From: Torpedo marmorata
Lineage: Eukaryota
Assembly: GCA_977017645.1 (NCBI GenBank)
Contig: OZ360224.1
Coordinates: 98,146,001-98,210,000 of the forward strand
Direction: 5' to 3'
DNA length: 64,000 nucleotides
Shown: positions 27,731-51,319 of the stretch, piece by piece
Layout: each line of letters opens with the position of its first letter
Numbering within the stretch: position 1 is the first letter of the stretch
Program-made: the position numbers and the translations under genes
Notes under the pieces: generated by a model
What the model was told of the DNA's origin: nothing
Database searches by the model: none
Seen by the model: only the letters and a program-made list of their open reading frames with translations

Positions 27731-28633
27731 ATTCACAAATTAATTGGAGACTGCCATTCATTTGACAGTAGAAAAGTACATTGGACTGCACAGAAAAAAT
27801 AGAATTATTCTAAGTAGAAATTTGAGACATACAATTAGGGTATAACTGTAATCATGGGTGTCTTTAATCTACATCCAGTGCTCCCGTTGTGGTTTCCTGT
27901 ACATCGAGAGACTGGATGCATACTGGAATATCGCTTCGCTCAGCACCTTTGCTCTGTCCACTGCAATAGCAGGGATCTCTCAGTGGCAACCCATTTTAAT
28001 TCCCTGCCCCATATTCCGTCTGGGCACCCTCCAACCAGATGGTATTAACATCAACTTATCTGGTTTCCGTTAGTCCCCCACCCCCGCGAACTCCCCCCTT
28101 CCCCAATCCCTATTTCTCCTGTTACAAAATCAAACCAGCAACGACAGAAGACGCAATGCAAAAGGGGTAAAATTGAAATTATTATTTATTAAACACAAGT
28201 AAACATATAATTTCACAACAATTAACCCCACTATAAATGTCTATAAACTCTATTCTTATCTAAACGGTGTATGTGTGTGTCTCGTCTTCGATTAGGTGTT
28301 TCTATAACATAGGTGACCTCATTAATTTTTGACTTAACTCTATAGGGTCCTGAAAATCTAGCCCTAAGAGGATTTGAATGGATGGGAAACAGAACTAATA
28401 CGTTCTCACCAGGTTTAAAAGTTCTCATCTTCGCCTTTCGATCATACCAAACCTTCATTCTCTGTTGAGTGGCCTTTAAATTCTCCTTTGCCATCTCACA
28501 AGCACTATGTAACCGATCCTTAAATTTGGAAACATAATCTAACAGATTTAAATGCACATCACGATTAATCCACTGTTCTTTTAATAATCTTAAAGGACCT
28601 CTCACCTCATGTCCGAAAACTAACTCGAATGGA

Positions 28634-31375
28634 CTAAAACCGAGTGAAGTCTTGGACAGACTCCCTCGCTGCAAATAACAACAAATGAACCCCCTCATCC
28701 CAATCCTTTTCCTTCTCACAACAATAGGTTCTAATCATGGTTTTCAAAGTCGAATGGAACCTCTCCAAGACCCCTTGACTTTCTGGATGGTACGCAGAGG
28801 ATACAATCTGTTTAACTCCCAGTCCATCAACCACTTGTTGGAAAACGCCTGACATGAAATTACTGCCCTGATCTGATTGAATTTCCCTTGGCAAACCTAC
28901 CAAGGTGAAAAACTTTACCATAGCCTTTACAATTGACTTTGCTTTTATGTTTCTCAGAGGAATGGCCTCTGGAAATCTGGTGGCTGCACACATAATTGTT
29001 AACAAATACTCATTCCCCGCTTTGGTTTTGGGCAATGGGCCAACACAGTCCACAATTACTCTCAAGAAAGGCTCACTGAAAGCAGGGATAGGTTGCAAGG
29101 GTGCCACCGGGGGACCCTGATTAGGTTTACCCACCACCTGACAAGTGTGACAGGCCCGGCAAAAGCTTACAACTTCCCTTCTTAAACTGGGCCAATAAAA
29201 TTGTTTCATTATCTTCCTTATAGTTTTCTTCACCCCAAGGTGACCACCTAAGGGTGTACTATGAGCCAAAGTTATTATTTCATCCCTATATACTTTAGGG
29301 ATTACAACCTGCTGCACTACTGCCCATTCTTCATTGACAGGAACATCACGTGGTCTCCACTTTCTCATCAACACCCCATCTTTTTCATAATAACCTACTG
29401 GCACCTTTTTAATCTCCTCTTCAGAGAGAACCTTATCCCTCACCTCAGCAAGATCAGGATCGTCCTTTTGCCTTGCTATTAACTCCTGTCGGGATAGTGA
29501 CAAATCTGTGCCTTTAGGTGTCTTATCAGTGGATGGGTGTAACATAGGAGATTGCTCAACCTTTTCCAGGTTTTCTTGATTATCAGTGTCTTTTTCTTTT
29601 ACCAAGTTATTTTCCACTGCCTTCTCTACAGTGACATTTTTCTTAGACATGGCCCTGGTTATGGCACATGCCGGATAAATATCAGAGTCTTTCTCTGACT
29701 TATCAATGACTGGCTTAGTGGTCATTCGCACTGCAGGAACTACTTTACCCTTGGCCAAGTCATTGCCTAACAACAGTGAGACTCCTTCTACGGGCAACTC
29801 TGATCTCACTCCTATTATACCTGGTCCTTCCACCAAGTCTGAGTTCAATACTATTTTGTGCAAAGGAATGGACTCAACCTCACCACCAATTCCTTTTATT
29901 AAATTTATGTCACCGGTGTCAGTAGCTTCACAAAATTCCAAGACACTATCTAACACAAGTGACTGAGCAGCTCCAGTATCTCGCAAGATTTTCACTGGAA
30001 CTTGTTTTGATCCTGCCTTAACTGAAACAAAACCATCAGTCACAAAAGGTTTAAATACATCTTTAACTTTGTCAGTACATTTATCTCCTTCCTGGGTGTT
30101 ATGCATCTTCTCACTCTGAATACAAGCATTAGGTGTTGCATCCTTTTCTCTCTTCTTTTTCAACACTGGACAGCTTGCTAGCATATGACCAGCCTTTCTA
30201 CAGTAGTGGCAAATGGGACCTGAATTGTTTTCCCTTTTCCACTTTCCTTCATCCCTTTCCTTAACACCACTTCCAAATTTACTTTCCACTTGCTTCTGAT
30301 TATCCACTGTGACCTTTTGGAAAATTCTACCTGACGTCCACTTAGGCTTGTGGGTTAAAGCATATTCATCTGCTAACTTAGCTGAATTTTGCCAAGTTTT
30401 CACCTCCTTTTCATCTAAGTATACCTTAATATCCTCAGGAACACACCTTTTTATCTCCTCGATTATTATCAATTCTCTCAATTGATTGTAATCATTGTTT
30501 ACTTCCTTAGATGTGCACCACCGGTCAAAACACACAACTTTTTCATCGGCAAACTCTGTATAAGATTGGGTTGCTGATCTTTTTAAATTTCTAAACTTCT
30601 GTCTATAAGCCTCTGGAACTAATTCATAAGCCTGGAATATAGCCCTTTTCACCGTTTCATAATCAGCAGCTTGCTCCGTGGTAAGAGTAGAATAAGCTTG
30701 CTGAGCTTTTCCTTTTATTACACTTTGTAACATAAGAGACCATTGGTCTTGTGGCCATTTTAATTTCACAGCCACTTTCTCAAAATGTTGGAAGTACTTA
30801 TCTATTTCTGCCTCCTCAAATGGAGGAACCAACCTAACTTCTCTACTAGCCAAAAACCCCTCAGCAGGATGACGAATTTGATCTTGGCGCTCTCCTTGTC
30901 TCCTCTCATTTTCCAACCTCATCTTTTCCAGCTCATATTTCCTATTTTTCTCCTCGTTCTCATATCTCTTTTGTTCTCTGTCTATCTCCATGTCTAATCT
31001 CTTTCGTTCCAATTCCAATTCTAATTTCTTTTGTTCCCTGTCTGCCTCTAATTTCTTTTGTTCCCTGGCTGCCTCCAATTCCTTTTGTTCCCTGGCTGCC
31101 TCCAATTCTAATTTCTTTTGTTCTCTGGCTGCCTCCAATTCCAATTTCTTTAATTCCAATTGTATGTTTTCAGGTTTACCCTTGGGAAACTGCTCTAACA
31201 CGCTCTCTTCCAATTTTTTTTCTTTTATATAGTATTTGACAATTTTTCTCCCAACCTCTGCCTTTTTCATAGATGGTTTTACAGAAGCAATGCCCAACTC
31301 TGTTGCTATAGCCACTAACTGTTCCTTTTTTAAAGTATCAGATTCAGGTGATTCCAAAAAATGTTCTACATCCAT
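28634..31375 (-). CDS. Gag(SCAN-like capsid, CCHC)-protease-integrase polyprotein of the Gmr1-like element
   Basis: Uninterrupted ORF from ATG 31375: YELVPEAYRQKFR (SCAN-like), CHYCRKAGHMLASC, ILRDTGA, H..GGHLG…CHTC, VDCVGP/SDQGSNF/ESQGVLERFH. A frameshift precedes the GPY tail in ORF 28231..28719. Confidence 0.88.
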   Translation of the reverse strand: MDVEHFLESPESDTLKKEQLVAIATELGIASVKPSMKKAEVGRKIVKYYIKEKKLEESVLEQFPKGKPENIQLELKKLELEAAREQKKLELEAAREQKELEAAREQKKLEADREQKKLELELERKRLDMEIDREQKRYENEEKNRKYELEKMRLENERRQGERQDQIRHPAEGFLASREVRLVPPFEEAEIDKYFQHFEKVAVKLKWPQDQWSLMLQSVIKGKAQQAYSTLTTEQAADYETVKRAIFQAYELVPEAYRQKFRNLKRSATQSYTEFADEKVVCFDRWCTSKEVNNDYNQLRELIIIEEIKRCVPEDIKVYLDEKEVKTWQNSAKLADEYALTHKPKWTSGRIFQKVTVDNQKQVESKFGSGVKERDEGKWKRENNSGPICHYCRKAGHMLASCPVLKKKREKDATPNACIQSEKMHNTQEGDKCTDKVKDVFKPFVTDGFVSVKAGSKQVPVKILRDTGAAQSLVLDSVLEFCEATDTGDINLIKGIGGEVESIPLHKIVLNSDLVEGPGIIGVRSELPVEGVSLLLGNDLAKGKVVPAVRMTTKPVIDKSEKDSDIYPACAITRAMSKKNVTVEKAVENNLVKEKDTDNQENLEKVEQSPMLHPSTDKTPKGTDLSLSRQELIARQKDDPDLAEVRDKVLSEEEIKKVPVGYYEKDGVLMRKWRPRDVPVNEEWAVVQQVVIPKVYRDEIITLAHSTPLGGHLGVKKTIRKIMKQFYWPSLRREVVSFCRACHTCQVVGKPNQGPPVAPLQPIPAFSEPFLRVIVDCVGPLPKTKAGNEYLLTIMCAATRFPEAIPLRNIKAKSIVKAMVKFFTLVGLPREIQSDQGSNFMSGVFQQVVDGLGVKQIVSSAYHPESQGVLERFHSTLKTMIRTYCCEKEKDWDEGVHLLLFAARESVQDFTRF

Positions 31376-31480
31376 TGTTGCTGGTTTTTTGTTACACACA
31401 CTAGCTTTTAATTAGCTTTACCAAAAGGAATGCCTTAAACCAAACTGGGATTCCTTCAATTACCAAGATGGATTTTGATT

Positions 31481-31502
31481 CAAATCCCGCAACGAGCCCC
31501 CA
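31481..31502 (-). promoter_or_regulatory. Primer binding site, tRNA-Pro type
   Basis: TGGGGGCTCGTTGCGGGATTTG, 3 nt after the LTR end; resembles the canonical Pro PBS TGGGGGCTCGTCCGGGAT. Confidence 0.85.
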
Positions 31503-32829
31503 ATTTGTTACAAAATCAAACCAGCAACGACAGAAGACGCAATGCAAAAGGGGTAAAATTGAAATTATTATTTATTAAACACAAGTAAACATATAATTTC
31601 ACAACAATTAACCCCACTATAAACGTCTATAAACTCTATTCTTATCTAAAAGGTGTGTGTGTGTGTAAAGCCCAGACCATTACAGTCTGTGCCCAACCCT
31701 TATGTAAAAATGGAAAAACTTTCCCCAAAAACCCCAGGTCAGTCATAAAAAACAAGTCAGTCAAAAAAACAAAAGAATAATTCAGTCCACAAGATTCACT
31801 CTCTTAAGTTCAGGCTTCAATTCAGTTCTGGGTCTGGTAGAAGTACTTCTGAATGAACGTTGGAGAGAGACAATGACTGTTTATGCTTACAAATACTTGT
31901 TTTCTTCTCTGATGACGTCCCCTTCTTGTAGGTTCATAAGGATTGCAAGTTCCAGATCAGTATACCACTGATTTAGGCGTATGCTTGAATCTCACAGCTA
32001 GTCTCGCTGATCTCACTCCTGTTCTTCACAGAAGTTGCTTTTTCTCAGAATTTCTCTGAGACAGGAGGCCATGTGCTATTCTGTCAGTCTTTCTCTGACT
32101 TTGCACACACCTGGATTTGACTGTGTCTTGTAGCCTTGCAACTTACAACTGTGCTTTGCAGAGATCTGCCCCTGCTTTTTGCAGAAGTGAAACAAATGTA
32201 TCTTGTCTAGCCTGTCTCTCTCTCTCTGGTCTCTCTCTGTCTGGGTACACCAAGAGTGCAACAATGTATCTTGTCTGGGTACACCAAGTAGCTGGGGAAG
32301 TTAACTCTTTCAGTACCTGGCCCCAGTGTATACTCCAAAAGACTTCATCCTTCCTGCTGACCGTCCGCAGTCCAAATGGTCAGTCATGGTCCATAACACT
32401 CCTTTCCTCTCTTTCTCTCTCGCTTTCCCTTTCCCTCTGTTTCGTTTCCTCCAGCTCTGCATTCACAGAACCACCATATCCAATTATTGCCCTTTGTCTG
32501 TTGGCCTGTGCTCCCCCCCCCCCCCCCCCAACTACCCTAACCCCTTTCCTGCCTTCTCCCCCAGCCTTTTTAATCAGGCACTTGCCTACTTTTTGCTCAT
32601 ACCTTGAAGGCCTCCGGGCCAAAATATCAGTTCTATATCTTTACCTCCTATGGACGTTGTGAGACCTGCTGAGTTCCTCCAGCATTTCTGTGTTTTTACT
32701 ACAATCACAGCATCTGCAGACTTTCACAGCGTCTGCAGACTTTCATGTTTCACTCTTAATCTATATATAGATTGATCAAAACAAATTAGCAATAATACTG
32801 TGGAGGAATACTTCCTGGAGTGTGGATAG

Positions 32830-33500: not shown

Positions 33501-34595
33501 GAATCATGGACAATCATGTTGTGTATGTGTGGTCTCTTAGGGAATGGTGACCATAGTCAGAAGTTTAGAATTCAGCAAAGGTCAAAAAGATTAAGAAGGA
33601 GGATGCTAGAATAAGTGCAAGGACCATAACAAAACCTATAAAAGTTTTTATAAATATGTAAAAAAAAAGTTATTGGACACATACGTCTCCTAAGTTCAGA
33701 AGCAAGATAAACTGCAATTGCGAATAAAGAAATGGAAGAACAACCAAATGTTCTGCTTTCAGAGGAATTACGCCCCAGATATATGAAGAAATGAAGGGTC
33801 TACTAGAGAGTGAAGACTTAAGGAGATTAGATAAACAGGCAGAGATTTTAAAGAGGCTTAAGGCCAATAAAACTCCAAGACTAAATCTACATCCCAGAGC
33901 ACCAAAAAAAAGGGCCCTAAAAATAGCAGAAGAACGAGGCGTGACTTTATTTAGGCCTTAAGCGGGCTTGACAGGATAGATGTTGAACAGGAGGAGATAG
34001 TTATGAAATAACCACGAGACAGAACAAAAGGGTGGCAGGCTCAGGCCATGAGTGCTGAAGGCTCCGGGGGAGCAGCAGACTGACGCAGAGCACCAGAGCG
34101 GGGGAACACCACCCTATCCCAACCGAGAGGGAGAAATCTGAAAGAAGATACTACAGGGAAGGAGATCACAGGAGCGGACCAGTGCAGGGCTCAGCGGCCA
34201 AAGTACTCACACCAGGCTGTGGGAGACTAGCTTGTGGGAACCAGGTATTGGGACTAGGAATGGTGAGCGGCCTCGGGTGCTGACAAGCTTTCTAATAGTA
34301 TTGGGGGAGGGGGGGGGGTTAAGAACTAGGTAGCCAAGGAGGATGAATTGGATGCCTGGATATCAGGCTCACCACTGGAACAGACAGAAGACCATGTAGC
34401 TACGGAGTTTACGGGGAAATTGAGGCGGCGGCATCGGAGGAGGTGGTGAAATTCAGGGACACTCGGGTGTCTCTTAAGGGACTCTTTTTGGCTTCTTTTT
34501 CTCTTCTTGGCAGGGGTGTTGGATGAGTGGGGCCTGTTTGCGTGCCTTTATGGGCAAACAAAACTTAACATATGTTGTCTATTGATGTGCATGAC

Positions 34596-37500
34596 TGTAA
34601 GAGCCGTAGGCTTGGTTACTTACCTTAATCGCGGCGTTCCGATGGTCTCAGCGGGTTTCGGAGGAGACACGGAGATTAGTAGGCCGTGCTGGGCCTATTT
34701 AGTACTCTGCGCATGCGCGGGAGTGCCGACGGGCGCATGCGCAGTGGGGAAGTGGCTGGAGCATGCGCAGTGGAGAAGTGAGTGCAGTATGCGCGCGGTG
34801 GAGTATGCACGTGGGAGCATGCGTGAATCGGGGGGAGAAGTAGTGGTATAAGAATATGGCAAGTTAGAGGAGGGTGAGTGAGATCGCCATAGCTTTCATT
34901 GACCGTTTAAAGGAACGTTTAAATGAGCGTTTGAAGAATCGTTATTAAGCATCGTTATTAAGAATTGCTTATATTTTGTTAAAGAAGATATTTAAGTAAT
35001 TGAAGATTGCTACAAGACATCGTGTGTAAATAAAGTTTTTGAACCTACTGGACTTGTTAGTAAATTAATTGAAACGCGTCAAGACCAAGTATCTCACCTT
35101 GCCTCCAAGTGACTATTTGTTGGATTGAAGTCACTGTATGTTTCGTCAATGAAAGTTTATTGTTTGGAACAGAAAATTGAAGTAAAGAAGATAGAATAAT
35201 CTCTGTGCTTTGGACTGATATTTAAAATAAAATGGTGGCCATCTTGGCGATGCCTCGAGCGAGGGGCAGTTTGTAATCCACATCCATCTGCCATGAGTAA
35301 CAGCCAGAGAGGGATATAGAGCTTCAAATCTTATAGTAAAGTGTCCTATAAATATGTTGGAGAAACCATTTCTTGAAAATCAGTGATATTAGTGACGGAT
35401 GCTGTGGTGGAAACTCGTTTGTGAATAGCAGCATATTACAGTCATCTGAAGTGGTAGGCATAAGTCTGTGGACTCCTGAGTAATTTTGGCAAGTTTGAAC
35501 ACAGATTGGATTTGCTGCCGCTAGTCCATTGGGGACTGTTGATTTGGCTAGTGTTGTGTATGCTTGAAGGACAGTGGAACAAGACGAGTAAAATGGCTGC
35601 AGCAGCCACTGATGTTGCTGTTGAGGACCAACGTATTGAAGACATGAAGGTTGTGGATCTTAAAGAAGAAAAGAGGCGACTGAAACTAGATACAAGTGGA
35701 AATAAAAAGGTTCTCATCGCAAGACTGAAGCTGGCAAAGGAAGAAGAGGCGGCTTCGTTTGATGAACATGAAGACAGCAAAGTGGAAATGGTTGAAAATG
35801 TGTCATCAAATGGTGATGAAGAAAACGAAGAGGATGAAGATGCAAAGGATGTACAATTCGGATTGGAGAAAGAGGTAAGTAAGAAGACAACATCTGAACT
35901 GCAGGATGAAATACAAGCATGTGACAGTGTCTCAAATGTTGAAAGCAGGAGAAGCAAACAAAGTTCTGGTTCGAGCTCCAGAGTTTCTCGTACTTCAAGT
36001 TCTGCATCGTCACTACAAAGGTTGAAGTTGACTTGGCCACTCTTCTTGCGCAACAAAAAACGCTTATGGATAAACATATTTTAGAACGACATGAGGAGCA
36101 GCTAAGGCAAAAGGAAGAGCAGCTAAGGCAAAAGGAGGAGCAGCTAAAGTTGCAGCTAAGGCAAAAGGAAGAGCAGCTAAGGCAAAAGGAGGAGCAGCTA
36201 AAGTTGCAGCTAAGGCAAAAGGAGGAGCAGCTAAGGCAAGAGGAGGAGCATCTAAGGCAGCAGCTAAGGCAGAACCAGGAGCAGCTAAGGCAGAGAGAAA
36301 GGAGCAGCAGGAGCTGGAAGCAAACATTACTATTGCCAAGGCAAAAAAAGAGGTACTGGAAAGCTTAATGGTATCTGGTGCTCGGAGTAAATTATCTAAA
36401 GTGTATGATGATAAGAAGTCATATTTTAAAAAAGAGTCACAGGAAAAGAAACCAACCAAAAGGGTAGATATTTTAGTACCAAGGGTACAAGACTTGCAAA
36501 TACAAGGACAAATCCTTCAAGAGCATAGTGTTATCAAAGTCACATGTACCACTGGTAACATCTGAAGACAAAGCTGTGGCATGGGTTCAGTCAAACGATG
36601 CAGCTCCCTTGGCATTTGAGTCAAGCATCAGAAATATGGGAGAAACTACACCAGTGAGGTTTCCAGATACATTACCTGTAACAAGAGGTGGTGAACAGAG
36701 CAATGTATTGTCATCCAAGGGAAGACAAAATGAAATTGCTACATCATTGATTCAGTTACAGTCTCTCTCTTCTTTGCCCAAGAAAAAGATACAAACTTTT
36801 GATGGTGATCCACTTCAGTACCAAGCGTTCATGAGATCTTTCAAACGCAATATTTAAAATAAATGCCAAGACCCTGATGAATGTCTTTATTATTTGGAAA
36901 TGTTCACAAAGGGACATCCAAGAGAACTTGTAAAGAGTTGTCAACATATGTCCTCAGAAAGAGGATTAGACAGAGCTAAGTCTTTACTAGAACAACATTT
37001 TGGCAACAAGCATAGAATTGCTTTAGCTTATATGGATAAAGCTCTTAAATGGACATCAATAAAACAGAATGATGTAAAAGCTCTACAAGCATATACTTTC
37101 TTTTTAAGAGGATATTGTAATGCCATGGAAGATATCGATAATATTCGTGAGCTTGAAGTGCCTGGTAATATGCGAATCATCTTAGAAAAATTACCTTACA
37201 AGTTGTGGGATAGATGGAGAAATTTGGCTTGTGATTTACAAGAAAATTACGTTCGAAGAGCTACCTTAAAGGATTTGGTAAATTTTCTTGAATGACAGGT
37301 CTACATTGAAACAGATCCAATATATAGAAATACCAAAGACAATTCAATGGGGAACAAAGATGTAAGGAGGTCTAACTCACAGCCTAGTCCGAAATTGAAA
37401 AGGAGTACTTTTGCTACTAATGTGTCAGTTATAAATAAAGAAAAAAAATAAAGTAAATAAGGAAAAGGAAAGTTTGACTAATGAGAAGAGTTGTTTGTTC

Positions 37501-40500
37501 TGTAAAGGTGGACATGCTTTGGAAATGTGTTTACGGTTGGAAAAGGAACATAATGAGAAGATCGCTTTCTTAAAGGAAAATGGAGTATGTATTAGCTGTC
37601 TGTGTAAAGGGCACATCAGTAAAAACTGCAAGAAGCGACTTAACTGTAACATATGCAATTTGAAACATCCTAGAATGTTGCATATCCATGAAAGAAACAA
37701 GGAATTGGAAAAGGAGCAAACAGAAACAAAGGAAACATCAGAAAACAATGTTATATCCTCGGTTCAGACAAGTGGTCTTACCAGGGCCGGTATAGATAAC
37801 TGCAAACTTTCAATAGTGCCTGTACAAGACCAAGAAATGGGATGCAACAGTACAAACATATGCATTTCTCGACCCAGGCAGCACTGCATCTTTTTGCACG
37901 GAAGGACGAATGAACAAACTTAGTATTCAAGGAAGGTCAAGAATTATGTTGAAAACCATGGGACAAGAAAAGGTCATTGAAACCAGCATTGTTTCAAGCT
38001 TAGAGGTTGCGGGATTGCATGGCAAAAAATCTTGTGATCTTCCAATGTTATACACTCAGAAGACTATGCCTGTGCATGAAGGAAACAACCCTCATCAAAA
38101 TGGTATTAAACGGTGGTCTTATCTGAAAAATGTTTGTCTACCTGTCATTAATTTTGAGATAGAAATGCTGATTGGTTCAGATGTACCAAAGGTTTTGGAA
38201 CCACTAGATGTAATACGGAGTGTGGGAGATGGACCTTACGCTGTTAAAACCATGCTTGGTTGGACAATCAATGGACCATTAGGAGGAAAAGGTGATAGTG
38301 CTCAGGAACAGTTAGCGATAAATGTTAACAGGATTTCGGTTATGAAACCTGATGAGCTGTGGGAACAGCAGTTCAAAGGTGACTTTCCTGAGTGCCTCAG
38401 TGATGACCAAGAACATTCAAGAGAAGATAGGCAGTTCTTGAATTTAGTCTTAGAATCTGCCAAGATAGTTGATGGACATTATTGTATTGGATTACCTTTA
38501 AAGATAAGAGAATTATACATGCCTGACAAAAGAAGTGTTGCTGAACAACGTACACTGAACTTAAGAAAAAGATTCAGGAGAGATTCTTCTTTTCATTCAG
38601 ATAATACCAATTTCATGTCTTGACATGATATCCAAAGGTTATGCAGAGAAAATAACAGATGATGTCTTGGGACGTAGTGATGGTAAAAAATGGTATATAC
38701 CACATCATGGGGTTTTACATCCACAGAATAAAAAACTTTGTGTTGTGTTTGACTGTGGAGCGACCTTTAGAGGAGTGTCACTAAATTCTCAGTTGTTACA
38801 AGGGCCAGACCCGACTAGTACATTGATAAGAGTCTTGGTTAGATTCCGTAAATAACCTTTTGTTATCACTGCTGACATTGAAGCAATGTTTCATCAAGTG
38901 AAGGTACCAAATGAAGACCGTGACTTATTACGGTTCCTCTGGTGGCCTAATGGAGACTACAGTCAGAATATGGTGAAATATAGAATGACAGTGCATTTAT
39001 TTGGAGCAACATCATCTCCAAGTTGTGCAAACTTTGCCCTTAGGAAGTGTGCTGAGGACAATGTGAAAGAGTTTAGCTCTCAAGCTGTAAGCACCATCCT
39101 GAACAATTTTTGTGGATGACTGTCTTACTTCTACAACTTCAGAAGAGGATGCATTATCTCTTTATTATGAGTTACGAAAGATCTGTTTAAAGGGTGGCTT
39201 TCTACTTACCAAATGGATAAGTAACAGTCATCGTGTGATGGCTGTCATACCTGAAGCAGATAGGGCAAAGGAAATGAAGAATCTGGATTTGGACCATGAC
39301 AATCTTCCTGTGGAGAGGGTGTTGGGTGTACAATGGTGTGTTCAGTCTGACGTTTTTAAATTCAAAATCATTTTGAAGGACAGACCTCTCACAAGAAGAG
39401 GGATTCTTTCAATGGTCAGTTCAATTTATGATCCCTTAGGAATATTGGCACCAGTAGTCCTAACTGCCAAGAAGATCCTGCAAGATTTGTGTAGAAAAAA
39501 GATAGGTTGGGATGATAAGATACCAGACTCCATTGTACAGAAATGGATGTGTTGGAATAGGGATCTTCATTTGTTGGAAGACTTCAAGGTTGACAGATGT
39601 TTCAAACCCATCAACTTTGGAAAGGTGACATTTGCTCAACTTCATCATTTTGCTGATGCATGTGAGGATGGTTATGGAACTTAGTTATCTGTTACTGCAT
39701 AGTAATAATGTTCAGATACATTGTGGATTTGTAATGGGAAAGGCCAGAGTGGCTCCATTAAAACCAGTTACTATACCTCGAATGGAGTTGACGGCTGCTG
39801 CCATGGTGAGTAGAATGGACACAGTGCTGAGAAAAGAGCTGCAGATGAATCTAGCAGACTCCATCTTTTGGACAGATAGCACATCTGTGCTTAAATACCT
39901 CAACAATAAGACAACAAGGTTTCGAACTTTTGTGGCTAACAGAATTGTTGAAATCGATAAAGTCTCATGTCCAATACAGTGGAGATATGTTAAGGCAGTT
40001 AATAATCCTGCTGATTTGGCTTCTCGAGGTTTGAAAGTCAAGTCTTTTCCAAAGAATAAAGTGTGGGTATCAGGGCCTCTGTTTCTTCTGCGGCCTCAAA
40101 ATGAGTGGCCCCAAAATCCTGATAAATTAAAGGAAATTTTATTAGATGATCCTGAAATCAAAAGAGAAGAACCCTACAATCAATCTAGAATTGGGATTAA
40201 AACTGCAAATGCAGTGCAGATAATATCTGAACAAAAGGATTGGATTACTTATTTAATCCATTGCTTTTCATTCTGGAATAGTTTGAGAAGGGCAATAGCA
40301 TGGTTGCTCAGATTTAAAAGATGGTATTTGAATCGTAACAAACGAACAAACAATGTTACTGAAACACAGGAAAGAGGACGTCTTACAGTTGAGGAATTAA
40401 TTGATGCTGAGATGGAGATAATCTGCTTTTGCCAGAAGAAAAGATTTGCAGACGAAATCTCAAGTTTAAAAAGGGGAACGAATGTTAAAAGGACAAGTCA

Positions 40501-42370
40501 TCTTCGTAAACTTAATCCCATTCTGGAGAATGGTGTATTACAGGTTGGTGGGCGACTTAGCAGAGCAGCAATGCCAGAAGAGATGAAACATCCTGTTATA
40601 CTGGCCAAGGATTTTTATATCTCTGATCTAATTCTTCGGCATATTCATGAAAAGGTGGGTCATGGTGGTCGCAACCATATGTTATCCAGACTACGACAAA
40701 AATATTGGATTCCTGGTGCCGCTGTGTTAACCTCCCTTCACATATGTTGGAGTCGATTATTTTGGGCCTTTTGAAGTGAAGCGTGGAAGGAGTATTGTGA
40801 AGCGCTATGGTGTTATTTTCACCTGTTTAGCTATAAGAGCAATTCATATTGAAGTAGCTTTGTCTCTTGACACAGACTCTTTTATCAATGCCCTTCGGCG
40901 TTTTATATCCAGACGTGGTCAAGTGAAGGAAATACGATCTGACAATGGCACTAATTTTGTGGGAGCTCAGCGCGAGTTGAAAGAGGCAATCGAAGGTTGG
41001 AATCAAGATCAAATACATTACTTCAGAAAGGAATCAATTGGAAATTCCACCCACCTACTGGTTCACACCATGGAGGTGTATGGGAAAGATTAATTAGATC
41101 GGTACGAAGGGTACTTAATTCCACCTTAAAGGTTCAAAGTCTGGACGAGGAGGGTCTTTGCACAGTTTTATGTGAAGTTGAAGCTATTCTCAATAGTCGT
41201 CCAATCACTAAGGCTTCTACAGATCCAAATGATCTTGAGGCACTTACCCCGAACCATCTTCTACTTCTTAAGACTAAGCTCTCAATGCCACCAGGGCAAT
41301 TTAAGAAGGAAGACGCATATGCTCGTCGGAGCTGGAGGCAAGTTCAGTATATGTCAGATTTGTTTTGGAAAAGATGGGTTAAAGAATATCTTCTTCAGCT
41401 GCAGGAACAGCAAAAATGGTTTAATCTCAGACGCAATTTTACACCAGGAGACATCGTGATTATTATGGACGATTCAGCTCCTCGAAACTCCTGGTTACTT
41501 GGAAAAATTATTGAGACTATTCAGGACATAAGGGGACTTGTGCGTCAAGTTCGAATCAAAACTAAAACCGGCTTCCTAAACAGACCTATTAACAAGATCT
41601 GCCTTCTTTTGGAGACAGAAGAACTTTGATAAATACAAACGGACTTTATTTTGTTGTTGTATACTACACAGGTTACAGACTTTTATTGATCCAGAGATAT
41701 GGTAAACTCTGGTCTTGCGAAGAAAGAAGATTTGTATATTGTTTGAATGTTATATGGTTATTGTTATTTGTAATTGATTGTGCAATTATTATTTAAGACA
41801 TTGCGTCTAATTATAATAATTAGGGGCTGGTGTAAGAGCCATAGGCTTGGTTACTTACCTTAATCGCAGCGTTCCGATGGTCTCAGCGGGTTTCGAAGGA
41901 GACACAGAGATTAGTAGGCCATGCTGGGCCTATTTAGTACTCTGCGCATGCGCGGGAGTGCCGACGGGCGCATGCGCAGTGGGGAAGTGGCTGGAGCATG
42001 CGCAGTGGGGAAGTGAGTGCAGTATGCGCGGTGGAGCATGCGCGTGGGAGCATGCGCGAATCGGGGGGGAAGTAGTGGTATAAGAATATGGCGACTTAGA
42101 GGAGGGTGAGTGAGATCGCCATAGCTTTCATTGACTGTTTAAAGGAACGTTTAAATGAGCGTTTGAAGAATCGTTATTAAGCATCGTTATTAAGAATTGT
42201 TTATATTTCGTTAAAGAAGATATTTAAGTAATTGAAGATTGCTACAAGTCATCGTGTGTAATTAAAGTTTTTGAACCTATTGGACTTGTTAGTAAATTAA
42301 TTGAAACGCGTCAAGACCAAGTATCTCACCTTGCCTCCAAGTGACTATTTGTTGGATTGAAGTCACTATA
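34596..42370 (+). mobile_element. BEL/Pao LTR retrotransposon, full length, inactivated
   Basis: LTRs 34596-35138 and 41831-42370; 5-bp TSD ATGAC at 34591-34595 and 42371-42375; PPT-like aattaggggctgg before the 3' LTR; Gag-PR-RT-RH-IN order. Confidence 0.95.
35593..41629 (+). pseudogene. BEL/Pao gag-pol with N-terminal SAP domain; multiple stops and frameshifts
   Basis: SAP-like N-terminus; TFDGDPLQY; triple Cys/His knuckles; FLDPGS protease; [30 protein letters not shown]; LHHFADA, TIPRMEL, FWTDS, NPADLASRG; [22 protein letters not shown]. Deletion in the IN zinc finger near 40725. Confidence 0.92.
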
Positions 42371-43112
42371 ATGACAAAAAAGGTTGGTACAGATATGATG
42401 GGTCGAAAGGCCTGCTCCTGTGTTGTATTGTTATATGGTAATGCACGCCATGATATAGCTGCATTTGGAATGGAATGTACTCACCTGATAAGTCTACATT
42501 TGTAAAGATAAAGGAAATGTTTTAATATATCCAAAGACATCTTGGAGCATTGGAACTGTTGAGTTTTAAAGAATCAAAAATAAAAGTTTTTGCAGAAAAG
42601 GTGGTGACACAAGGTAGGTAGCATTATGAGGCATTGAAGGGTACATGAATTTTATATACAGTCCAAGAACATCCTGGGACTGGGATTCTTAACAGTTTGC
42701 GAAGAGTTTTAAATCATGATAGGGGAGGGCATGAAATTCATTTTACCACTAGTGCAACAATTCAATGGATATAAGTACAAATTGGAGTCCTGCACCTCTG
42801 TTTAGAGCTAATGATCATTTTTGTTTCACCAAAAGCTTCCATCTTATCAAGGTTTAACAATTTTTTTAACTGAAAAACTGGAACTTAGAAAAGCAGTCTG
42901 ATAAAGCAGACAGTTTGGAGGTTTTGAAAGGGATAGGAGAAAATTAGAGCTCAGTGTCAATAGCATTGAATAAGAAAAAAAGGGTGAGGTGGGCAGGGGC
43001 AAATGAAGCTTGAGGGTTGAAGTTATTGCAGATCATCTGACTACAAATGGAGAGATACATGCATACACATTATTCCGAGTAAATACTAGTAAACAATTTT
43101 TCACTTACAAGT

Positions 43113-45355: not shown

Positions 45356-46689
45356 TAGAAACCATAACGTAATGAAGAACTTAGAATGCAAATTAAGCTT
45401 TGGCTGCATGCATGAACTTTCCCTACAGGTATCTTTTTCATTCCATACACATTTTAGCAAACTTATTAAGACAATGTATGGAAAATAAATAGCTTTCACA
45501 CCATCCATTCCATGCCCTAACATTAGCAACACATTTATCTAAATATGTTTCCAGCTCAAAAGAATAAGGAGCTAATAATTAAAAAATGATAAAAACAAGG
45601 GTGCCTGGAATGCATTGTCAAGGGTGGTGGTGGAGGAAGGTACAATCAGGACATTCAAAAGACTCTTGGATAGGCACATGGATGTGAGAAAAAGAGAGTT
45701 ATGGATGTGAGGTAGGGAAAAATTAAGATTGTTGTAGAGTATGTTTACTCGTACGCTAAAGGACCTGTACTATACTGTAATGTTCTAAGATTCCGTTCCA
45801 GAGAACTGTCTGTAAAACTAAATTTTCCCTGTCAGTAAAGATTAATTTTCCCAAACCCAAGATCTATGTACCGGTAGATATGACGATCTGACATATGGAC
45901 ACAGTAAAACAAACATCTTGGCAGCAGATTAGCAGCAAATTTCGTTTGAAATATAATGATAATAATTAATTGAATATCCATTTAAAAATGTGCTCTGTAA
46001 TTGTATTGCTGAGTTAAATTATAAATAACCTAATTCCAATTTTAACTGATGTTTGAACTAAGAATTTCATAAGGGGTTTTTGATTATTGTTTGATATGGT
46101 GAAGAAATATAAAATTAATTTTACTTGTGGGATGGTAATATTTCTGTTTTTCTTGTTTATGTGAGGTAACAAAAGAATGGGACGAACAGCGCCCTCAGAT
46201 TTCTATGCACATAATCACTGTTCTTTTCACTGTTGTGGGTTATAAGATAAGGGAAGAAATTACTCCATTTGGGAGATAAAAAGTGGCATTCTGAAGTTGT
46301 AGCCGCGCGCTACTCGAAAGAAGACACACACACGTAGTGTAGTCAGGTTAAGCTCTGTGTTTATTAGGGCTCAAGCCCGAATTTTATATTAACACAGTTC
46401 CCGCCGTGGCCTCCGTTTACTGATGTCACTTTATACATAACAAAAGCGGGTTTCCCGCGCGCGGGTACTTTCCTGCATAACAATACCTTCTTCCCCGCAC
46501 GTTGTCCCTGTCTGTTGGCTGTGCAGCAAGGCCAGCGCCATTTTGGGGTCGCTGCCCTTGCCGTTTACCTGCCGGTTTGCTTGCTGGGGCCAGTGCCGCT
46601 GCGCGGGCTGCTGGCCTTTAGTTGCGCTCGCCGCCCGGAGAGCCGGCTCAATCGCCGCGGTGGCGAGCCGCCACATGCCCCCCCCCCCC

Positions 46690-49600
46690 AGAACCGGTGG
46701 TATTGTCCTTGGTGCTCGGAGGCAAAGTCTCTGCAGCCTTCGGTGGCCTGCCTCTTCGGCGTAGTGCTGGTGTCTCGACTGGGCGCGCCGGGTCCAGGTG
46801 TGCCGGCTTCAGCCTGACTGTTGTGAAGACCTCCGTCTTGCCGCCGACCTCCAGCTCGAACGTGGCTCCATTGTTGCGGATGACCCGGAACGGACCCTCA
46901 TATGGCCTCTGAAGAGGTGGACGATGTGGATCTCTGCGAATGAAAACACTCACAGTCCTGTAGGTCTCTGGGTACGTTGGTCCTCGCGTGTCCGTGCCTG
47001 GAAGGTGGAATCGGGGCCAGGTTGCCGACTCTTTCCCTCAGCCTGCCGAGGAACGTTGCAGAGTCGTCCTGCTGCCCGCCTGGGGAAGGTACGAATTCTC
47101 CCGGGACCACCAGTGGAGCTCTGTAGACGAGTTTGGCCGAAGAGGTGTTGAGGTCCTCCTTGGGTGCTGTGCGGATGCCCAACAGCGCCCATGGTAGCTC
47201 ATCTACCCAGTTGGGACCTTGGAGTCTGGTCTTGAGCGCGGTCTTGAGGTGCCTGTGGAAGCGCTCCACCAATCCATTGGACTGTGGGTGGTAAGCTGTT
47301 GTGTGATGCAGCTGGGCACCCCACAGGCTGGCGAGGTCGGACCACAGACTGGAGGTGAACTGGGCCCCCTTGTCGGATGTGATGTGGGATGGTAAACCGA
47401 ACCGTGCCACCCAGGACGAGATGAGGGCCGTGGCACACGAGGTTGTAGACGTGTCTGCCAGCGGGACTGCTTCTGGCCACCTGGTGAAGCGGTCGATCAT
47501 CGTGAACAGATAACGGAAACTCTGGGTCCTACTATGTCCACGCGGATGTGGTCGAACCTTCGTTCTGCGGGCTCGAAGTGCTGAGGTGGGATCTTGGTGT
47601 GCGCCGCGTGTACCTTGGCTGTTTGGCATTGTGTGCACGCCTTTGCCCACCTGCTGACCTGTTTCCGCAAACCACGCCAAATGTATTTACTGGCCACCAG
47701 CCGGACCGTGGTCCTGACGGATGGGTGAGCCAGTCCGTGGATGGAGTCAAAAACCTGTCGTCTCCAAGCCGCCAGGACGATGGGTCTGACCTGACCGATG
47801 GCCACGTCGCACAGGAGGGTGGTGTTACCTGTGCCGACCGGGATGTCCTGGAGCTGTAGTCCTGATATGGCAGTCCTGTACTGGGGCATCTCCTTGTCTT
47901 TCTGCTGCGCCTCCGCCAGTGCTACGAAGTCCATTCCTTTCGATAGTGCATGGATACTTTGCCTGGACAGTGCGTCGGCCACCACGTTGTCCTTACCGGA
48001 GACATGCCTTACATCTGTGGTGTACTCCGAGATGTAAGACAGGTGTCGTTGCTGGCGGGCCGACCAGGGGTCCGAGATCTTAGCCAAGGCGAAAGTCAGG
48101 GGCTTGTGATCTGTGAACGCCGTGAAGGCCCTGCCCTCTAGGAAGTGTCTGAAGTGGCGGATGGCTAAGTACAGCGCCAGTAGCTCTCTGTCGAAAGCGC
48201 TGTACTTCAGTTCTGAAGGCCGCAGATGTTTACTGAAGAAAGCCAGCGGCCGCCAACTTCCTTCGATCTGCTGCTCCAGAACGCTGCCGATCGCCGGTCC
48301 TGAGGCATCCACCGTCAGGGCCGTTGGAGCGTCTGCCCTGGGATGTGCCAGGAAAGCGGCGTCCGCCAGGGCGTCCTTGGCCTTCATGAAGGCTTCCACT
48401 CAATCCTCGTCCCAGGTGATGTCCTTTGCCTTGCCTGCCATCCAGGAGAACAAGGGCCGCATAATCCGGGCAGCTGAGGGGATGAACCTGTGGTAGAAAT
48501 TGATCATCCCCATGAACTCCTGTAGTCCCTTGGTCGTGTTGGGTCTGAGGAACTTCCGGATGGCCTCCACTTTACTGGGTAGCGGTGTGGCTCCTTCCCT
48601 GGTTATTCTGTGGCCCAGGAAGTCGATGGCCTCCAATCCGAACTGGCATTTGGCTGGGTTGATCGTCAGGCCGAACTCGCTGAGTCGGGTGCAGAGGTTG
48701 CGGAGGTGCATCATATGTTCCGGTTTGTTCCTGCTTGCCACCAGGATGTCGTCCAGGTACACGAAGGTGCCATCCAGGTCTCGGCCCACCGCGTCCATGA
48801 GTCGCTGGAAGGTCTGTGCGGCGTTCTTTAGCCCGAACGGCATTTGGAGGAATTCGAAGAGGCCGAACGGGGTGATGATGGCGGTCTTGGGAATATCCTC
48901 GGGGCACACCGGAATCTGATGATATCCCCGAACGAGGTCCACCTTGGAGAAGATCTTTGCCCCGTGCAGGTTAGCTGCGAAGTCCTGGATGTGCGGCACG
49001 GGTTACCGATCCGGTGTCATGGCCTCGTTGAGCCGGCGGTAGTCGCCTCATGGTCTCCAGCCCCCAGTTGCTTTGGGTACCATATGCAGGGGAGAAGCCC
49101 ATAGGCTGTCCGACCGCCGTACGATGCCGAGCTCCTCCAGCTTCCTGAATTCCTCCTTCGCCAGCTGGAGTTTCTCCGGAGGAAGGCGTCTTGCCCTTGC
49201 GTGGAGTGGCGGGCCCTGGGTCAGGATGTGGTGCTGTACTCCATGTCGGGGCATCACTGTGGTGAATTGGGGGGTAAGCAATGCAGGGAACTCGGCCAGG
49301 ACCCTGGCGTACTCATTGTCCGACCTCTGTACGGAGTCCAGGTGGAGTGCTGGGAGCAGGGCGTCTTTGAGGGGGAAGGTTTGAAAAGTCTTGGCATGGA
49401 CCAATCTCCTTCCCTTGAGGTCCAGTATCAGGTTGTGGGCGCGCAGGAAGTCTGCCCCGAGGAGCGGCTGTTCCACTGCGGTCTGCGTGAACACCCACGA
49501 GAAGGGGCTGCCTCCCAACAGCAGTTGGGCCTTACGGGTACCGTAGGTCCGAATCGTGCTGTTGTTGGCAGCCCTCAGCATGGGGCCCGACTGCCTGTTC

Positions 49601-50405
49601 CTGGTGTCCTGTCCCGACGGGGGCAGGACGCTGACCTCTGCTCCTGTGTCCACGAGGAAGAGTCGTCCGGACTGGCGGTCCCAAACGTACAGGAGGCTGT
49701 CTTGGTGGCCAGCCGTCGTGGCTATCAGCGACGGCTGGCCCCGGCGTTTCCCTGAAACGTGCATGGCGGCCTGCACCGGTGCCTCATCTCTGGTGGCAGA
49801 AACACCACTGGTCGTCTGGATTGCCGCCTCTGGGGCGCTACTGTTCTCTCGGAAGCTCTGCCCGGGTCTGGCTGCGGGGTTTAGCACGAGGCCCACGGAC
49901 GCCGAGCACTCTCTCTTCTGTTTCACAGAATGTCCGCTCGTGCTGCAATTTTCCATGGGTCGCTGAAACCCGCGTCAGCCAGGAGCAGTTGGATGCCATC
50001 GGGCAGTTGCTCCAGGAATGCCTACTCGAACATAATACGGGGCTCGTGTTTACCCAGGAGGACCAGCATCTCGTTCATGAGGGCTAACGGGGGCCTGTCC
50101 CCTAAACCGTCCAGGTGGAGCAGACATGCGCCTCCCTCGCGCCGTGAGAGCCCGAAGGTCTCAATCAGCAAGTCCTTGAAGGCGGTATATGCGCCTTCCA
50201 ATGGGGGCTCCTGGATGAAGTTGGCCACCCATCCTGCTGTGTCCTGGTCCAGGGCGCTCACCACGTGGTAGTACCGGGTGGATTCTGCTGTGATCTGCCG
50301 GATCTGAAACTGTGCCTCAGCCTGGTCAAATCACACGCGTGGTTGATTCGTCCAGAAAGTCGGCAGCTTGAGAGCGACCACGTTGATTGCTGCCTGTTCG
50401 CTCAT
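46690..50405 (-). pseudogene. Gypsy gag-pol, disrupted
   Basis: Gag MSEQAAINVVALKLPTFW…; PR FLVDTGA; [16 protein letters not shown]; RNase H VDAS, DRELLA, TDHKPL, ADALSR; IN SDKGAQF, QSNGLVERFH; PLQRPYEGPF. Several stops and frameshifts. Confidence 0.92.
49707..49752 (-). promoter_or_regulatory. -1 programmed ribosomal frameshift signal (gag-pol)
   Basis: Slippery G_GGA_AAC (49746-49752) in the gag frame, 5-nt spacer, perfect 12-bp hairpin GGCCAGCCGTCG/CGACGGCTGGCC (49707-49740); the -1 frame is pol. Confidence 0.85.
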
Positions 50406-51319
50406 CGTTGGGTTTAGATGCTGTCTAAACCGTCAGGGTCACCAATTGTAGCCGCGCGCTACTCGAAAGAAGACACACACACGTAGTGTAGTCAGGTTAA
50501 GCTCTGTGTTTATTGGGGTTCAAGCCTGACTTTTATATTAACACAGTTCCCGCCGTGGCCTCCTTTTACTGATGTCACTTTATACATAACAAAAGCGGGT
50601 TTCCTGCGCGCGGGTACTTTCCTGCATAACAATACCTTCTTCCCCGCGCGCTGTTCCTGTCTGTTGGCTGTGCAGCAAGGCCAGCGCCATTTTGGGGTCG
50701 CTGGCCTTTGAGCTGCCCTTGCTGTTTACCTGCCAGTTCGCTTGTTGGGTCCAGTGCCGCTGCGCAGACTGCTGACCTTTAGTTGCGCTCGACGCCCGGA
50801 GAGCCGGCTCGCTCGCCGTGGGCCGCCACAAAGTGATTATTTTTCAAAAGCAGCCAAATTTATGCTCGACATGGGTGAATTTGCATAAAGTTGGATCTCC
50901 TTCAGTCAGATTTTTCATAACCCAGGGACTACCTGCATTCATTATAAGTTTCAACATTTTTGCAATATCAATGGGCCTTGGAGAGGAAGCTCTTAAATGT
51001 TGGAAGATTCACACCTTCATTGACACTAATTTAAAAAAATCTTTAATAGTCAATTAAAATTGTTATTGTATATTTTTTAGTTTCTATTACCATTTACTGT
51101 TTTATTAATATTCTTTGGATTTACAGATCAGTTAACATTTACAGGCTAACATTTAACACTCAATCAACAGGAAAACAAGTCTGGATGGTCATTTATTTTT
51201 ATAACCTGTTAGGGATGTCATAATTCTTGATGATTCCAGCTCTTTGCTATGTCACAAAACGAACAATACATCATTAGTATTTAATTTGCTGTGAAACTCT
51301 TTGGGTTATCCTTGAACCG

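What the first reader, a model, noticed from the sequence alone, without database searches (positions are those of the whole stretch)
35593..35880. BEL/Pao Gag begins with a SAFB/SLTM-like SAP domain (possible host-domain capture)
Seen: inside the LTRs, ATG 35593 (aaaATGG) opens MAAAATDVAVEDQRIEDMKVVDLKEEKRRLKLDTSGNKKVLIARLKLAKEEE, then an acidic stretch, then the usual Ser-rich and coiled-coil BEL Gag. Known: this fits the SAP helix-loop-helix and, from memory, resembles the N-termini of SLTM (…[38 protein letters not shown]) and SAFB, including the Ala-rich start and acidic follow-on. SAP binds AT-rich/SAR DNA, and SAFB-family proteins restrain retroelement RNAs. Inference: this lineage may have captured the 5' end of a host SAFB/SLTM gene, giving Gag a chromatin tether for integration targeting or a decoy of a restriction factor. 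SAP-like Gag N-termini occur in some invertebrate elements, so novelty must be tested. This is the best candidate for an undescribed system here.
Basis: partly seen in the sequence, partly recalled or inferred. Interest (0 to 1): 0.75.

Follow-up and report, generated by a model that had tools for sequence, protein, structure and literature searches.

The report
DNA-binding SAP domain on retrotransposon Gag
An abundant family of BEL/Pao jumping genes has swapped the usual front end of its coat protein for a small DNA-binding domain that most resembles the start of the host chromatin proteins SAFB and SLTM, which may let its particles cling to chromosomes.

Summary
Confirmed. A decayed 7.8-kb BEL/Pao element (34596-42370; LTRs 3.4% apart; 5-bp target duplication) opens its Gag with a true SAP domain (Pfam 34.7 bits, cut-off 23.9). 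The SAP belongs to the family, not just this copy: 35,839 contigs of one run, and three more runs, cover it as evenly as its flanks. It is derived: 0 of 37 related loci and 0 of 11 related proteins have SAP; 32 of 37 loci carry a three-helix bundle there instead. The closest relative shows that SAP replaced the first half of that bundle, leaving a 52-nt remnant. Among 1.84 billion proteins the best single-SAP matches are all SAFB/SLTM, and the likeness runs 11 residues past the domain. But identity is only about 50%, SAFB and SLTM fit equally, unrelated SAPs reach similar core scores, and most animal SAP paralogues and transposon SAPs could not be compared: donor SAFB/SLTM about 60%. Likeliest role: a multivalent chromatin tether, as in foamy-virus Gag (inferred, untested); a decoy role is unlikely. 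No report found in the papers searched; Repbase and Dfam were not available. New variant of a known kind.

The parts
34591..34595 (+). left target-site duplication (5 bp)
   Evidence: identical 5-mer on both sides of the element
34596..35138 (+). 5' LTR, 543 nt; begins TG, ends TA
   Evidence: 522 of 543 columns match the 3' LTR, K2P 0.034
35139..35592 (+). leader; 35520-35547 is a motif shared with the leaders of relatives L032 and L035
   Evidence: local alignments above all 300 shuffles; primer-binding site not identified
35593..35634 (+). start codon and Ala-rich N-terminus of Gag (residues 1-14)
   Evidence: BLASTP alignment with ray SAFB1 starts at Met1; tandem length variants in other copies (table 5c)
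35635..35730 (+). SAP domain (residues 15-46)
   Evidence: Pfam PF02037, 34.7 bits, cut-off 23.9
35734..35766 (+). SAFB-like flank behind the SAP (residues 48-58)
   Evidence: 6 of 11 identical to shark and sawfish SAFB1, shuffle p 2-3e-4; at most 3 of 11 for 30 other SAP flanks
35767..35826 (+). acidic linker, origin unknown
   Evidence: no significant match to SAFB1, SLTM or relatives
35827..35878 (+). remnant of the ancestral helical N-terminal domain
   Evidence: aligns with L032 2492-2544, score 50 against a shuffle maximum of 40, 0 of 300
35888..36007 (+). conserved BEL Gag motif and Ser-rich stretch
   Evidence: 80% identical over 120 nt to L032; motif present in the relatives
36020..36365 (+). 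Gag coiled coil, expanded by a 21/12-nt tandem repeat; frame changes at both ends
36858..37292 (+). Gag capsid core (DUF1759)
   Evidence: Pfam 26.1 bits; 53-59% identical to 11 proteins
37492..37689 (+). three zinc-knuckle-like motifs (nucleocapsid)
   Evidence: pattern search
37817..38620 (+). protease region
   Evidence: LDPGS motif; weak Asp_protease_2 match
38565..39880 (+). reverse transcriptase and RNase H-like (Peptidase_A17) region, in pieces
40628..41626 (+). integrase: zinc finger, core, DUF5641; in pieces, with a gap of about 38 codons
41831..42370 (+). 3' LTR, 540 nt
42371..42375 (+). right target-site duplication

Best explanation
An ancestor of this BEL/Pao family replaced the first part of the helical domain that its relatives carry at the Gag N-terminus (the matrix position) with a start codon plus SAP domain, and lost the rest of that domain by deletion (shown by sequence comparison; about 0.9-0.95). 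The incoming piece most likely came from the 5' coding end of a host SAFB/SLTM-type transcript, long ago (inferred; about 0.6). Kept by selection, the SAP gives Gag a weak double-stranded-DNA binding site; displayed in many copies on the particle or on Gag oligomers, it tethers the particle or integration complex to chromatin when the nuclear envelope opens, as the chromatin-binding signal of foamy-virus Gag does (inferred by analogy; about 0.5-0.55 given a functional SAP). The confidence below is for 'selected SAP that acts as a chromatin tether', whatever the donor.
For: SAP above cut-off. Even cover of leader, SAP and Gag motif in 4 of 4 runs laid; joints that skip SAP have depth 13-55 against about 1e6. 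0 of 37 loci and 0 of 11 proteins with SAP; 32 of 37 loci carry the helical domain, 9 of them not used to build the profile. The element is nested among bundle-bearing relatives in the protease tree (SH-aLRT 96) and RT tree (97/94 for a 7-row set). Three collinear anchors with L032 delimit the swap: 351 nt replaced by 279 nt, then 308 nt reduced to 9 nt. The replaced domain folds as three long helices, pLDDT 87; the N-terminal domain of a belpaovirid Gag is called matrix and predicted as a helix bundle, and the capsid N-terminus faces outward (bioRxiv 10.64898/2026.03.22.711591, passages). Donor: 8 of 8 single-SAP hits among 19 hits in 1.84 billion proteins are SAFB/SLTM N-termini; per domain 38-40 bits against at most 24 for the other hits and 15.6-20.5 for MKL1, hnRNPUL1 and SARNP domains in the PDB; flank 6 of 11; residues 14-58 score 117 against at most 102 for 30 other SAPs. 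Function: all 8 columns conserved in 70% or more of the unrelated SAPs are kept, although half the residues differ from SAFB/SLTM; the lysine that SAFB2 needs for DNA binding (K53) is kept as K38 (PMC9958909, Results). Gag-borne chromatin tethering is known from foamy virus (PMC7828637, passages).
Against: No binding, localisation or integration-site data. No dN/dS could be computed (only 40 of 133 variant sites shown, no codon linkage). Three residues that matter in SAFB2 differ: S54 (K39 here), S31 (E16) and R45 (L30), whose loss unfolded SAFB2 SAP, although Leu is found in that column in 39% of other SAPs. On the 37-column core the best score against SAFB/SLTM is 101, and 2 of 31 unrelated SAPs reach 100 and 98. 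At columns 16, 18, 19, 25, 30, 31 the element has residues seen in 0 of 12 SAFB/SLTM but in 19-48% of other SAPs. One SAFB-like residue (V21) is not shared by most copies. With the variable columns and 48-50 left out, one unrelated SAP scores 85, inside the SAFB/SLTM range 81-88. The 37-column tree is unresolved and also pulls in an unrelated repeat family. The Atlas ranked a SAFB cluster first only at 0.86 for the whole piece and generic SAP clusters first for the domain alone. Base composition of the SAP region is like the rest of the element, so no trace of a recent capture.
Confidence: 0.5

Rival explanations
1. Origin rival: the SAP came from another mobile element (Zisupton-type DNA transposon, or another LTR element with a SAP-like Gag start) or from another host SAP gene, and resembles SAFB/SLTM because these lie near the centre of SAP sequence space.
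For: Unrelated SAPs reach 98-100 against SAFB/SLTM on the core; six columns have non-SAFB residues; identity only 48-52% although SAFB itself hardly changes from sharks to mammals; SAP occurs in Zisupton and in one Penelope-like element (PMC8557442, passage). Recalled, from no call: SAP-like starts on arthropod Gypsy Gags in database annotations.
Against: No other single-SAP protein reached E 0.001 in the whole library of representatives; flank match beyond the domain; alignment from Met1 to residue 58 with ray SAFB1, 28 of 61 identical. SAFB2 shares only 36% with the SAF-A-type SAP (PMC9958909, Discussion part 1), less than this element shares with SAFB.
Confidence: 0.4
2. Function rival: SAP holds Gag on chromatin at sites of transcription so that it can pick up its own genomic RNA, or it binds the element's own cDNA inside the particle; it does not steer integration.
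For: Nuclear passage of Gag for RNA selection has been proposed for foamy virus and Rous sarcoma virus (PMC7828637, passage); SAFB2 SAP binds dsDNA with little sequence preference.
Against: The same review notes that this view is challenged. The matrix position should face away from the cDNA if the capsid is built as in Atlas virus (inference).
Confidence: 0.2
3. Function rival: the matrix position is dispensable and SAP is a tolerated passenger that came in with a start codon.
For: Gag N-termini of LTR elements are highly variable and unrelated to each other (PMC11011659, section 9); linker and Ala-rich start vary in length among copies; no selection test done.
Against: The fold-defining columns are kept while half the others changed (the comparison set was chosen by likeness to this domain, so this is weak); the helical domain it replaced is conserved in 32 of 37 relatives, so the position is normally used.
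Confidence: 0.17
4. Function rival: SAP is a decoy that blunts SAFB-family repression of the element.
For: SAFB proteins suppress L1 and, in mice and flies, LTR elements through adenosine-rich coding RNA (PMC10901741, abstract and passages); this element's coding strand is 30-40% A; SAFB2 SAP tends weakly to dimerise.
Against: That repression rests on RNA binding; SAFB2 SAP does not bind RNA; no RRM or other SAFB part was captured; 50% divergence from a nearly invariant host domain is poor mimicry.
Confidence: 0.08

Closest known systems
Fish-type BEL/Pao (Belpaoviridae) elements with a helical Gag N-terminal domain: loci L032, L035, L005, L009/L011; proteins P0002-P0012
   Same: LTRs, target duplication, Gag motif, coiled coil, DUF1759, knuckles, PR-RT-RH-IN-DUF5641 order; 64-74% nucleotide identity over long stretches, 80% at the Gag motif of L032.
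   Different: They begin with a conserved three-helix bundle of about 105 residues; here it is replaced by SAP plus an acidic linker, with a 52-nt remnant. The superfamily within BEL/Pao (Suzu, Sinbad, Dan and others) was not determined.
SAFB1/SAFB2/SLTM N-terminus
   Same: SAP close to the start codon after an Ala-rich stretch (19 residues to the anchor column; 17-24 in fish and shark proteins); 21-23 of 44 identities; similar flank; the DNA-binding lysine.
   Different: Half the residues differ, among them the S31, R45 and S54 equivalents; no RRM, no ER-rich coiled coil; no likeness beyond residue 58.
Transposon-borne SAP domains: Zisupton DNA transposons; Chlamys-1_pPol Penelope-like element (PMC8557442)
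   Same: A SAP domain used as an accessory part of a mobile element.
Foamy-virus Gag chromatin-binding signal (PMC7828637); recalled: MLV p12, chromovirus integrase chromodomain, PHD fingers on some BEL Gags
   Same: A chromatin-binding module carried by a structural or integration protein of a reverse-transcribing element.
   Different: Different fold and position; those are tested, this is not. The recalled examples come from no call.

Membership tests
BEL/Pao LTR retrotransposon (Belpaoviridae; features from PMC8742986, whole text) | LTRs of 0.2-1.2 kb, genome 4.2-10 kb | tested here: met
   543 and 540 nt, 7,775 nt in all, 5-bp duplication
BEL/Pao LTR retrotransposon | Gag with capsid and nucleocapsid; Pol order PR-RT-RH-IN | tested here: met
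   DUF1759, three knuckle-like motifs, LDPGS, RVT_1, Peptidase_A17, Integrase_H2C2, rve, DUF5641 in that order
BEL/Pao LTR retrotransposon | Pol related to BEL/Pao rather than Gypsy or Copia | tested here: met
   Pao-specific Peptidase_A17 86.6 bits; 48-85% identity along the intact polyprotein of L005
BEL/Pao LTR retrotransposon | 18-nt primer-binding site for tRNA-Arg or tRNA-Gly; polypurine tract of about 10 nt | tested here: inconclusive
   No clear site after the 5' LTR (no tRNA set to compare); a short purine-rich run precedes the 3' LTR
SAP domain (PF02037) | Profile match above the curated cut-off | tested here: met
   34.7 bits against 23.9
SAP domain (PF02037) | Helix-loop-helix fold | tested here: inconclusive
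   Single-sequence AlphaFold gave one long helix, pTM 0.39; no alignment-based model was made
SAP domain (PF02037) | Binding to double-stranded DNA | not testable with these tools
   K53 equivalent kept; S31, R45, S54 equivalents changed
SAFB/SLTM-derived SAP | Best match among all SAP proteins | tested here: met
   8 of 8 single-SAP hits; 38-40 against at most 24 bits per domain
SAFB/SLTM-derived SAP | Likeness beyond the domain | tested here: met
   Residues 48-58: 6 of 11 with shark/sawfish SAFB1, 4-5 of 11 with SLTM; window chosen after seeing the alignment
SAFB/SLTM-derived SAP | Supported clade with SAFB/SLTM against other animal and transposon SAPs | tested here: inconclusive
   37-column tree groups it with SAFB/SLTM and one unrelated repeat family; animal paralogues and transposon SAPs missing from the set
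SAFB/SLTM-derived SAP | Subfamily-invariant residues kept | tested here: not met
   Columns 18, 19, 30 are invariant in 12 of 12 SAFB/SLTM and differ here; so at most a diverged derivative
SAFB/SLTM-derived SAP | Nucleotide likeness to the host gene's exons or 5' UTR | not testable with these tools
   No host genome held

The most novel reading that the evidence does not exclude
A vertebrate BEL/Pao lineage captured the first two exons' worth of SAFB, a host repressor of transposons, put it in place of its matrix-position domain, and thereby gained a multivalent chromatin tether that biases its insertion sites and helped it multiply to thousands of copies, far above the largest BEL/Pao family in the published survey.
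Probability: 0.22. Interest if true: 0.8.

Novelty: new variant of a known kind. Interest (0 to 1): 0.55.

Why it matters
Almost nothing is known about how BEL/Pao elements reach chromatin or choose sites (replication 'poorly understood', PMC8742986). Here a natural swap sets two kinds of close relatives side by side: one with the ancestral helical domain, one with a DNA-binding SAP in its place, with the breakpoints visible. That makes the role of the Gag N-terminus testable from genome data alone, by comparing insertion sites and copy numbers. If the donor is SAFB/SLTM it is also a clear case of a retrotransposon taking a working domain from a host chromatin protein and fixing it, and from a family that represses transposons. 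Surprise is tempered because accessory domains on mobile elements, SAP among them, are known.

Tried and rejected
No host genome held, so no copy census, insertion-site analysis or host-gene DNA comparison. Word-indexed search with residues 1-60 among longer proteins: 135 candidates, none at E 0.001; weak, since true SAFB matches score just under that bar. Mixed SAP + BEL-motif profile: the 120 listed of 1,612 hits are all SAFB/SLTM, which is circular because five of the 11 rows were SAFB/SLTM; the other 1,492 were not shown, so it says nothing on SAP-bearing BEL Gags. Viral contigs: 66 pattern matches, none confirmed. Single-sequence fold of residues 1-60: one helix, not informative. The ancestral helical domain: no consistent Pfam family among 19 members, no Foldseek match at E 0.001 in PDB or BFVD; RecA hits come from tandem fusion constructs and were rejected. 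The profile of that domain finds nothing in the window (best 6.3 bits); the remnant shows only at DNA level against L032. Gag-core tree leaves the element unresolved in a 29-row set; the protease tree is the quick version. Expression: no RNA holder listed; X3 is only guessed to be RNA. Rejected: SAP as a private insertion in this copy; SAP as a chance match in an acidic region; recent capture (composition; divergence). 'BEL Pao' phrase searches may miss the spelling with a slash and are not counted as negatives. Earlier scan notes: nothing by sequence, place or the first word set.

Full report
Pfam SAP matches residues 15-46 at 34.7 bits against a cut-off of 23.9. The ORF lies inside a BEL/Pao element at 34596-42370 with LTRs of 543 and 540 nt (18 mismatches in 540 columns, K2P 0.034), a 5-bp target duplication, and capsid, knuckle, protease, RT, RNase H-like and integrase parts in the BEL order. 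The copy is dead: the SAP frame ends at 36084, and there are seven frame changes and a gap of about 38 codons further on. The host was not established by any search; the surrounding repeats look to me like those of a cartilaginous fish (recalled).

SAP is a family trait. Contigs of four runs from four studies and four organism labels were laid on 35139-36090 (4 of the 12 holders listed). All 30 bins are covered in all four, SAP about as deeply as the leader and the Gag motif; joints that skip SAP have depth 13-55 against about a million. No single contig spans SAP and the Gag motif, but overlapping ones do, and the window itself does. X1 may be the sample behind the window, and X2 and X3 show nearly the same variants as X1, so they are not proof of wide spread; X4 differs at several sites. 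X1 gives 35,839 contigs on 952 bases, roughly 1,200 different 31-mers per position if their length is the run's mean. This is a rough sign of at least a thousand diverged copies, not a count; the largest family in a survey of 62 genomes had 397 copies (PMC3118150, passages). The odd lysine at 27 is private to this copy, codons 21, 28 and 34 also differ in most copies, and contigs in all four runs show a length difference at the first frame break, so that break too looks like decay of this copy.

SAP is a replacement. A scan of metagenome contigs gave 37 loci with related Gag cores, 34 with at least 1,300 nt upstream. A SAP profile that scores the window at 51 bits finds nothing above 8 bits in any of them, nor has any of 11 related proteins a SAP. 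Instead 32 of 37 carry a conserved helical domain upstream of the core, 9 of them held out from the profile; several loci are near-identical, so the number of families is smaller. AlphaFold models it as three long helices (pLDDT 87) with no specific structural match. A belpaovirid Gag has a predicted helix bundle at this place, named matrix by position (bioRxiv 10.64898/2026.03.22.711591, passages); homology to that bundle was not tested. Trees from separate unbroken pieces nest the element among bundle-bearing relatives L035, L009/L011 and L005. L032 is the closest at DNA level and aligns at three collinear anchors: a leader motif, a 52-nt piece from the middle of the helical domain, and the Gag motif, each above all 300 shuffles. 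Between the first two, 351 nt of L032 correspond to 279 unrelated nt holding start codon, SAP and acidic linker; between the last two, 308 nt have shrunk to 9. So SAP replaced the first part of the domain and the rest was deleted.

The donor is probably, not surely, SAFB/SLTM. HMMER over 1.84 billion representatives gave 19 hits at E 0.001: 8 single-SAP proteins, 10 proteins with several SAPs, and one repeat protein without SAP. All 8 are SAFB or SLTM starts, 3 by name and 5 by near identity to named ones. Per domain they score 38-40 bits, the others at most 24, three solved animal SAPs 15.6-20.5. BLASTP aligns Met1 to residue 58 with ray SAFB1 at 28 of 61. Residues 48-58, outside the Pfam match, share 6 of 11 with shark and sawfish SAFB1 (p 2-3e-4 against shuffles of the element's own acidic stretch, window chosen after the fact); 30 other SAP flanks share at most 3. 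This flank appears to cross an exon junction, because two predicted proteins leave the SAFB/SLTM sequence right after the domain (P0020, P0032; inference), which fits capture or processing at the RNA stage. Against: identity is 21-23 of 44 with both SAFB and SLTM; on the core alone two of 31 unrelated SAPs score as well against SAFB/SLTM as this one does; six columns carry residues never seen in 12 SAFB/SLTM domains but common elsewhere; the tree is unresolved; the Atlas gives only leads. ACIN1, CCAR1, HNRNPU, Zisupton and Gypsy SAPs were not in my set except as unseen members of the library. Composition matches the rest of the element, so any capture is old. I put the donor at about 0.6.

How it most likely works. 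Shown: position, replacement, fixation, retention of the columns that define SAP. From the literature: SAFB2 SAP binds only double-stranded DNA, with micromolar affinity and a slight AT preference, needs K53/S54, and does not bind RNA (PMC9958909, Results and first part of Discussion). Here K53 is kept and S54 is replaced by a second lysine; S31 and R45 differ. Inferred: one such domain binds weakly, but Gag assembles in many copies and the capsid N-terminus faces outward in Atlas virus, so a particle or Gag oligomer would bind chromatin by avidity, as foamy-virus Gag tethers to chromatin when the nuclear envelope breaks down (PMC7828637, passages). That would aid nuclear retention and could bias insertion. 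Rivals are capture of genomic RNA at chromatin or cDNA binding (0.2), a passenger (0.17) and a decoy of SAFB (0.08); SAFB represses transposons by binding adenosine-rich RNA (PMC10901741, abstract and passages) and no RNA-binding part was taken.

What is known. SAP is reported in Zisupton transposons and one Penelope-like element (PMC8557442, one passage). Searches for SAP domain + retrotransposon + Gag (12 papers, 11 listed), Pao + retrotransposons + SAP + Gag (4, listing only), SAP + Gypsy + Gag + LTR retrotransposon + SAF-A (0), SAP domain + Zisupton and SAP domain + KDZ (0) showed no LTR Gag with SAP. The word SAP does not occur in the main text of PMC3118150, PMC12440569, PMC11011659 or the Atlas preprint; their supplements were not read, and those of the preprint are closed. 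PMC12498223 (passages) and the listing gave nothing on BEL in sharks or rays. The library lacks most subscription papers, and Repbase and Dfam were not available, so the family may be catalogued. I recall SAP-like starts on arthropod Gypsy Gags in database annotations; no call tested this. Gag N-termini of LTR elements are known to be diverse (PMC11011659, section 9).

Verdict: a real, family-wide domain swap in an abundant BEL/Pao lineage; a member of BEL/Pao and of the SAP family; a probable but unproven SAFB/SLTM derivative; function inferred. New variant of a known kind, interest 0.55.

Noticed in passing
window 28120-31666 (-): A 3.5-kb LTR element (161-nt repeats, 158 identical) with a 924-codon frame holding a SCAN-like Gag, a knuckle and an integrase but no Pfam RT match. 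Its Gag starts with a weak Rho_N match (E 0.023, below cut-off), a helix-pair motif akin to SAP: a lead that such domains recur at Gag starts.
   Followed up: partly
window 46297-50830 (-): A Gypsy-type LTR element with protease, RT, RNase H and integrase pieces, G+C about 58% against 42% for the window.
   Followed up: partly
window 36098-36313 (+): A 21/12-nt tandem repeat lengthens the Gag coiled coil of the BEL element.
   Followed up: no
window 35598-35615 and 35814-35840: Other copies carry short tandem duplications in the Ala-rich start and the acidic linker (tables 4 and 5c).
   Followed up: no
window 35137-35138 and 42369-42370: Both LTRs end in TA, not the usual CA, as bounded by the target duplication; the 5' LTR is CpG-rich (observed/expected 1.23).
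   Followed up: no
L035:749-1153 and 31 other loci: The conserved three-helix N-terminal domain of fish-type BEL Gags has no consistent Pfam family and no specific structural match: an unnamed domain.
   Followed up: partly
window 1180-1974 (+): Piece of a pogo/Tigger-like transposase (BrkDBD, HTH_Tnp_Tc5, weak DDE_1).
   Followed up: no
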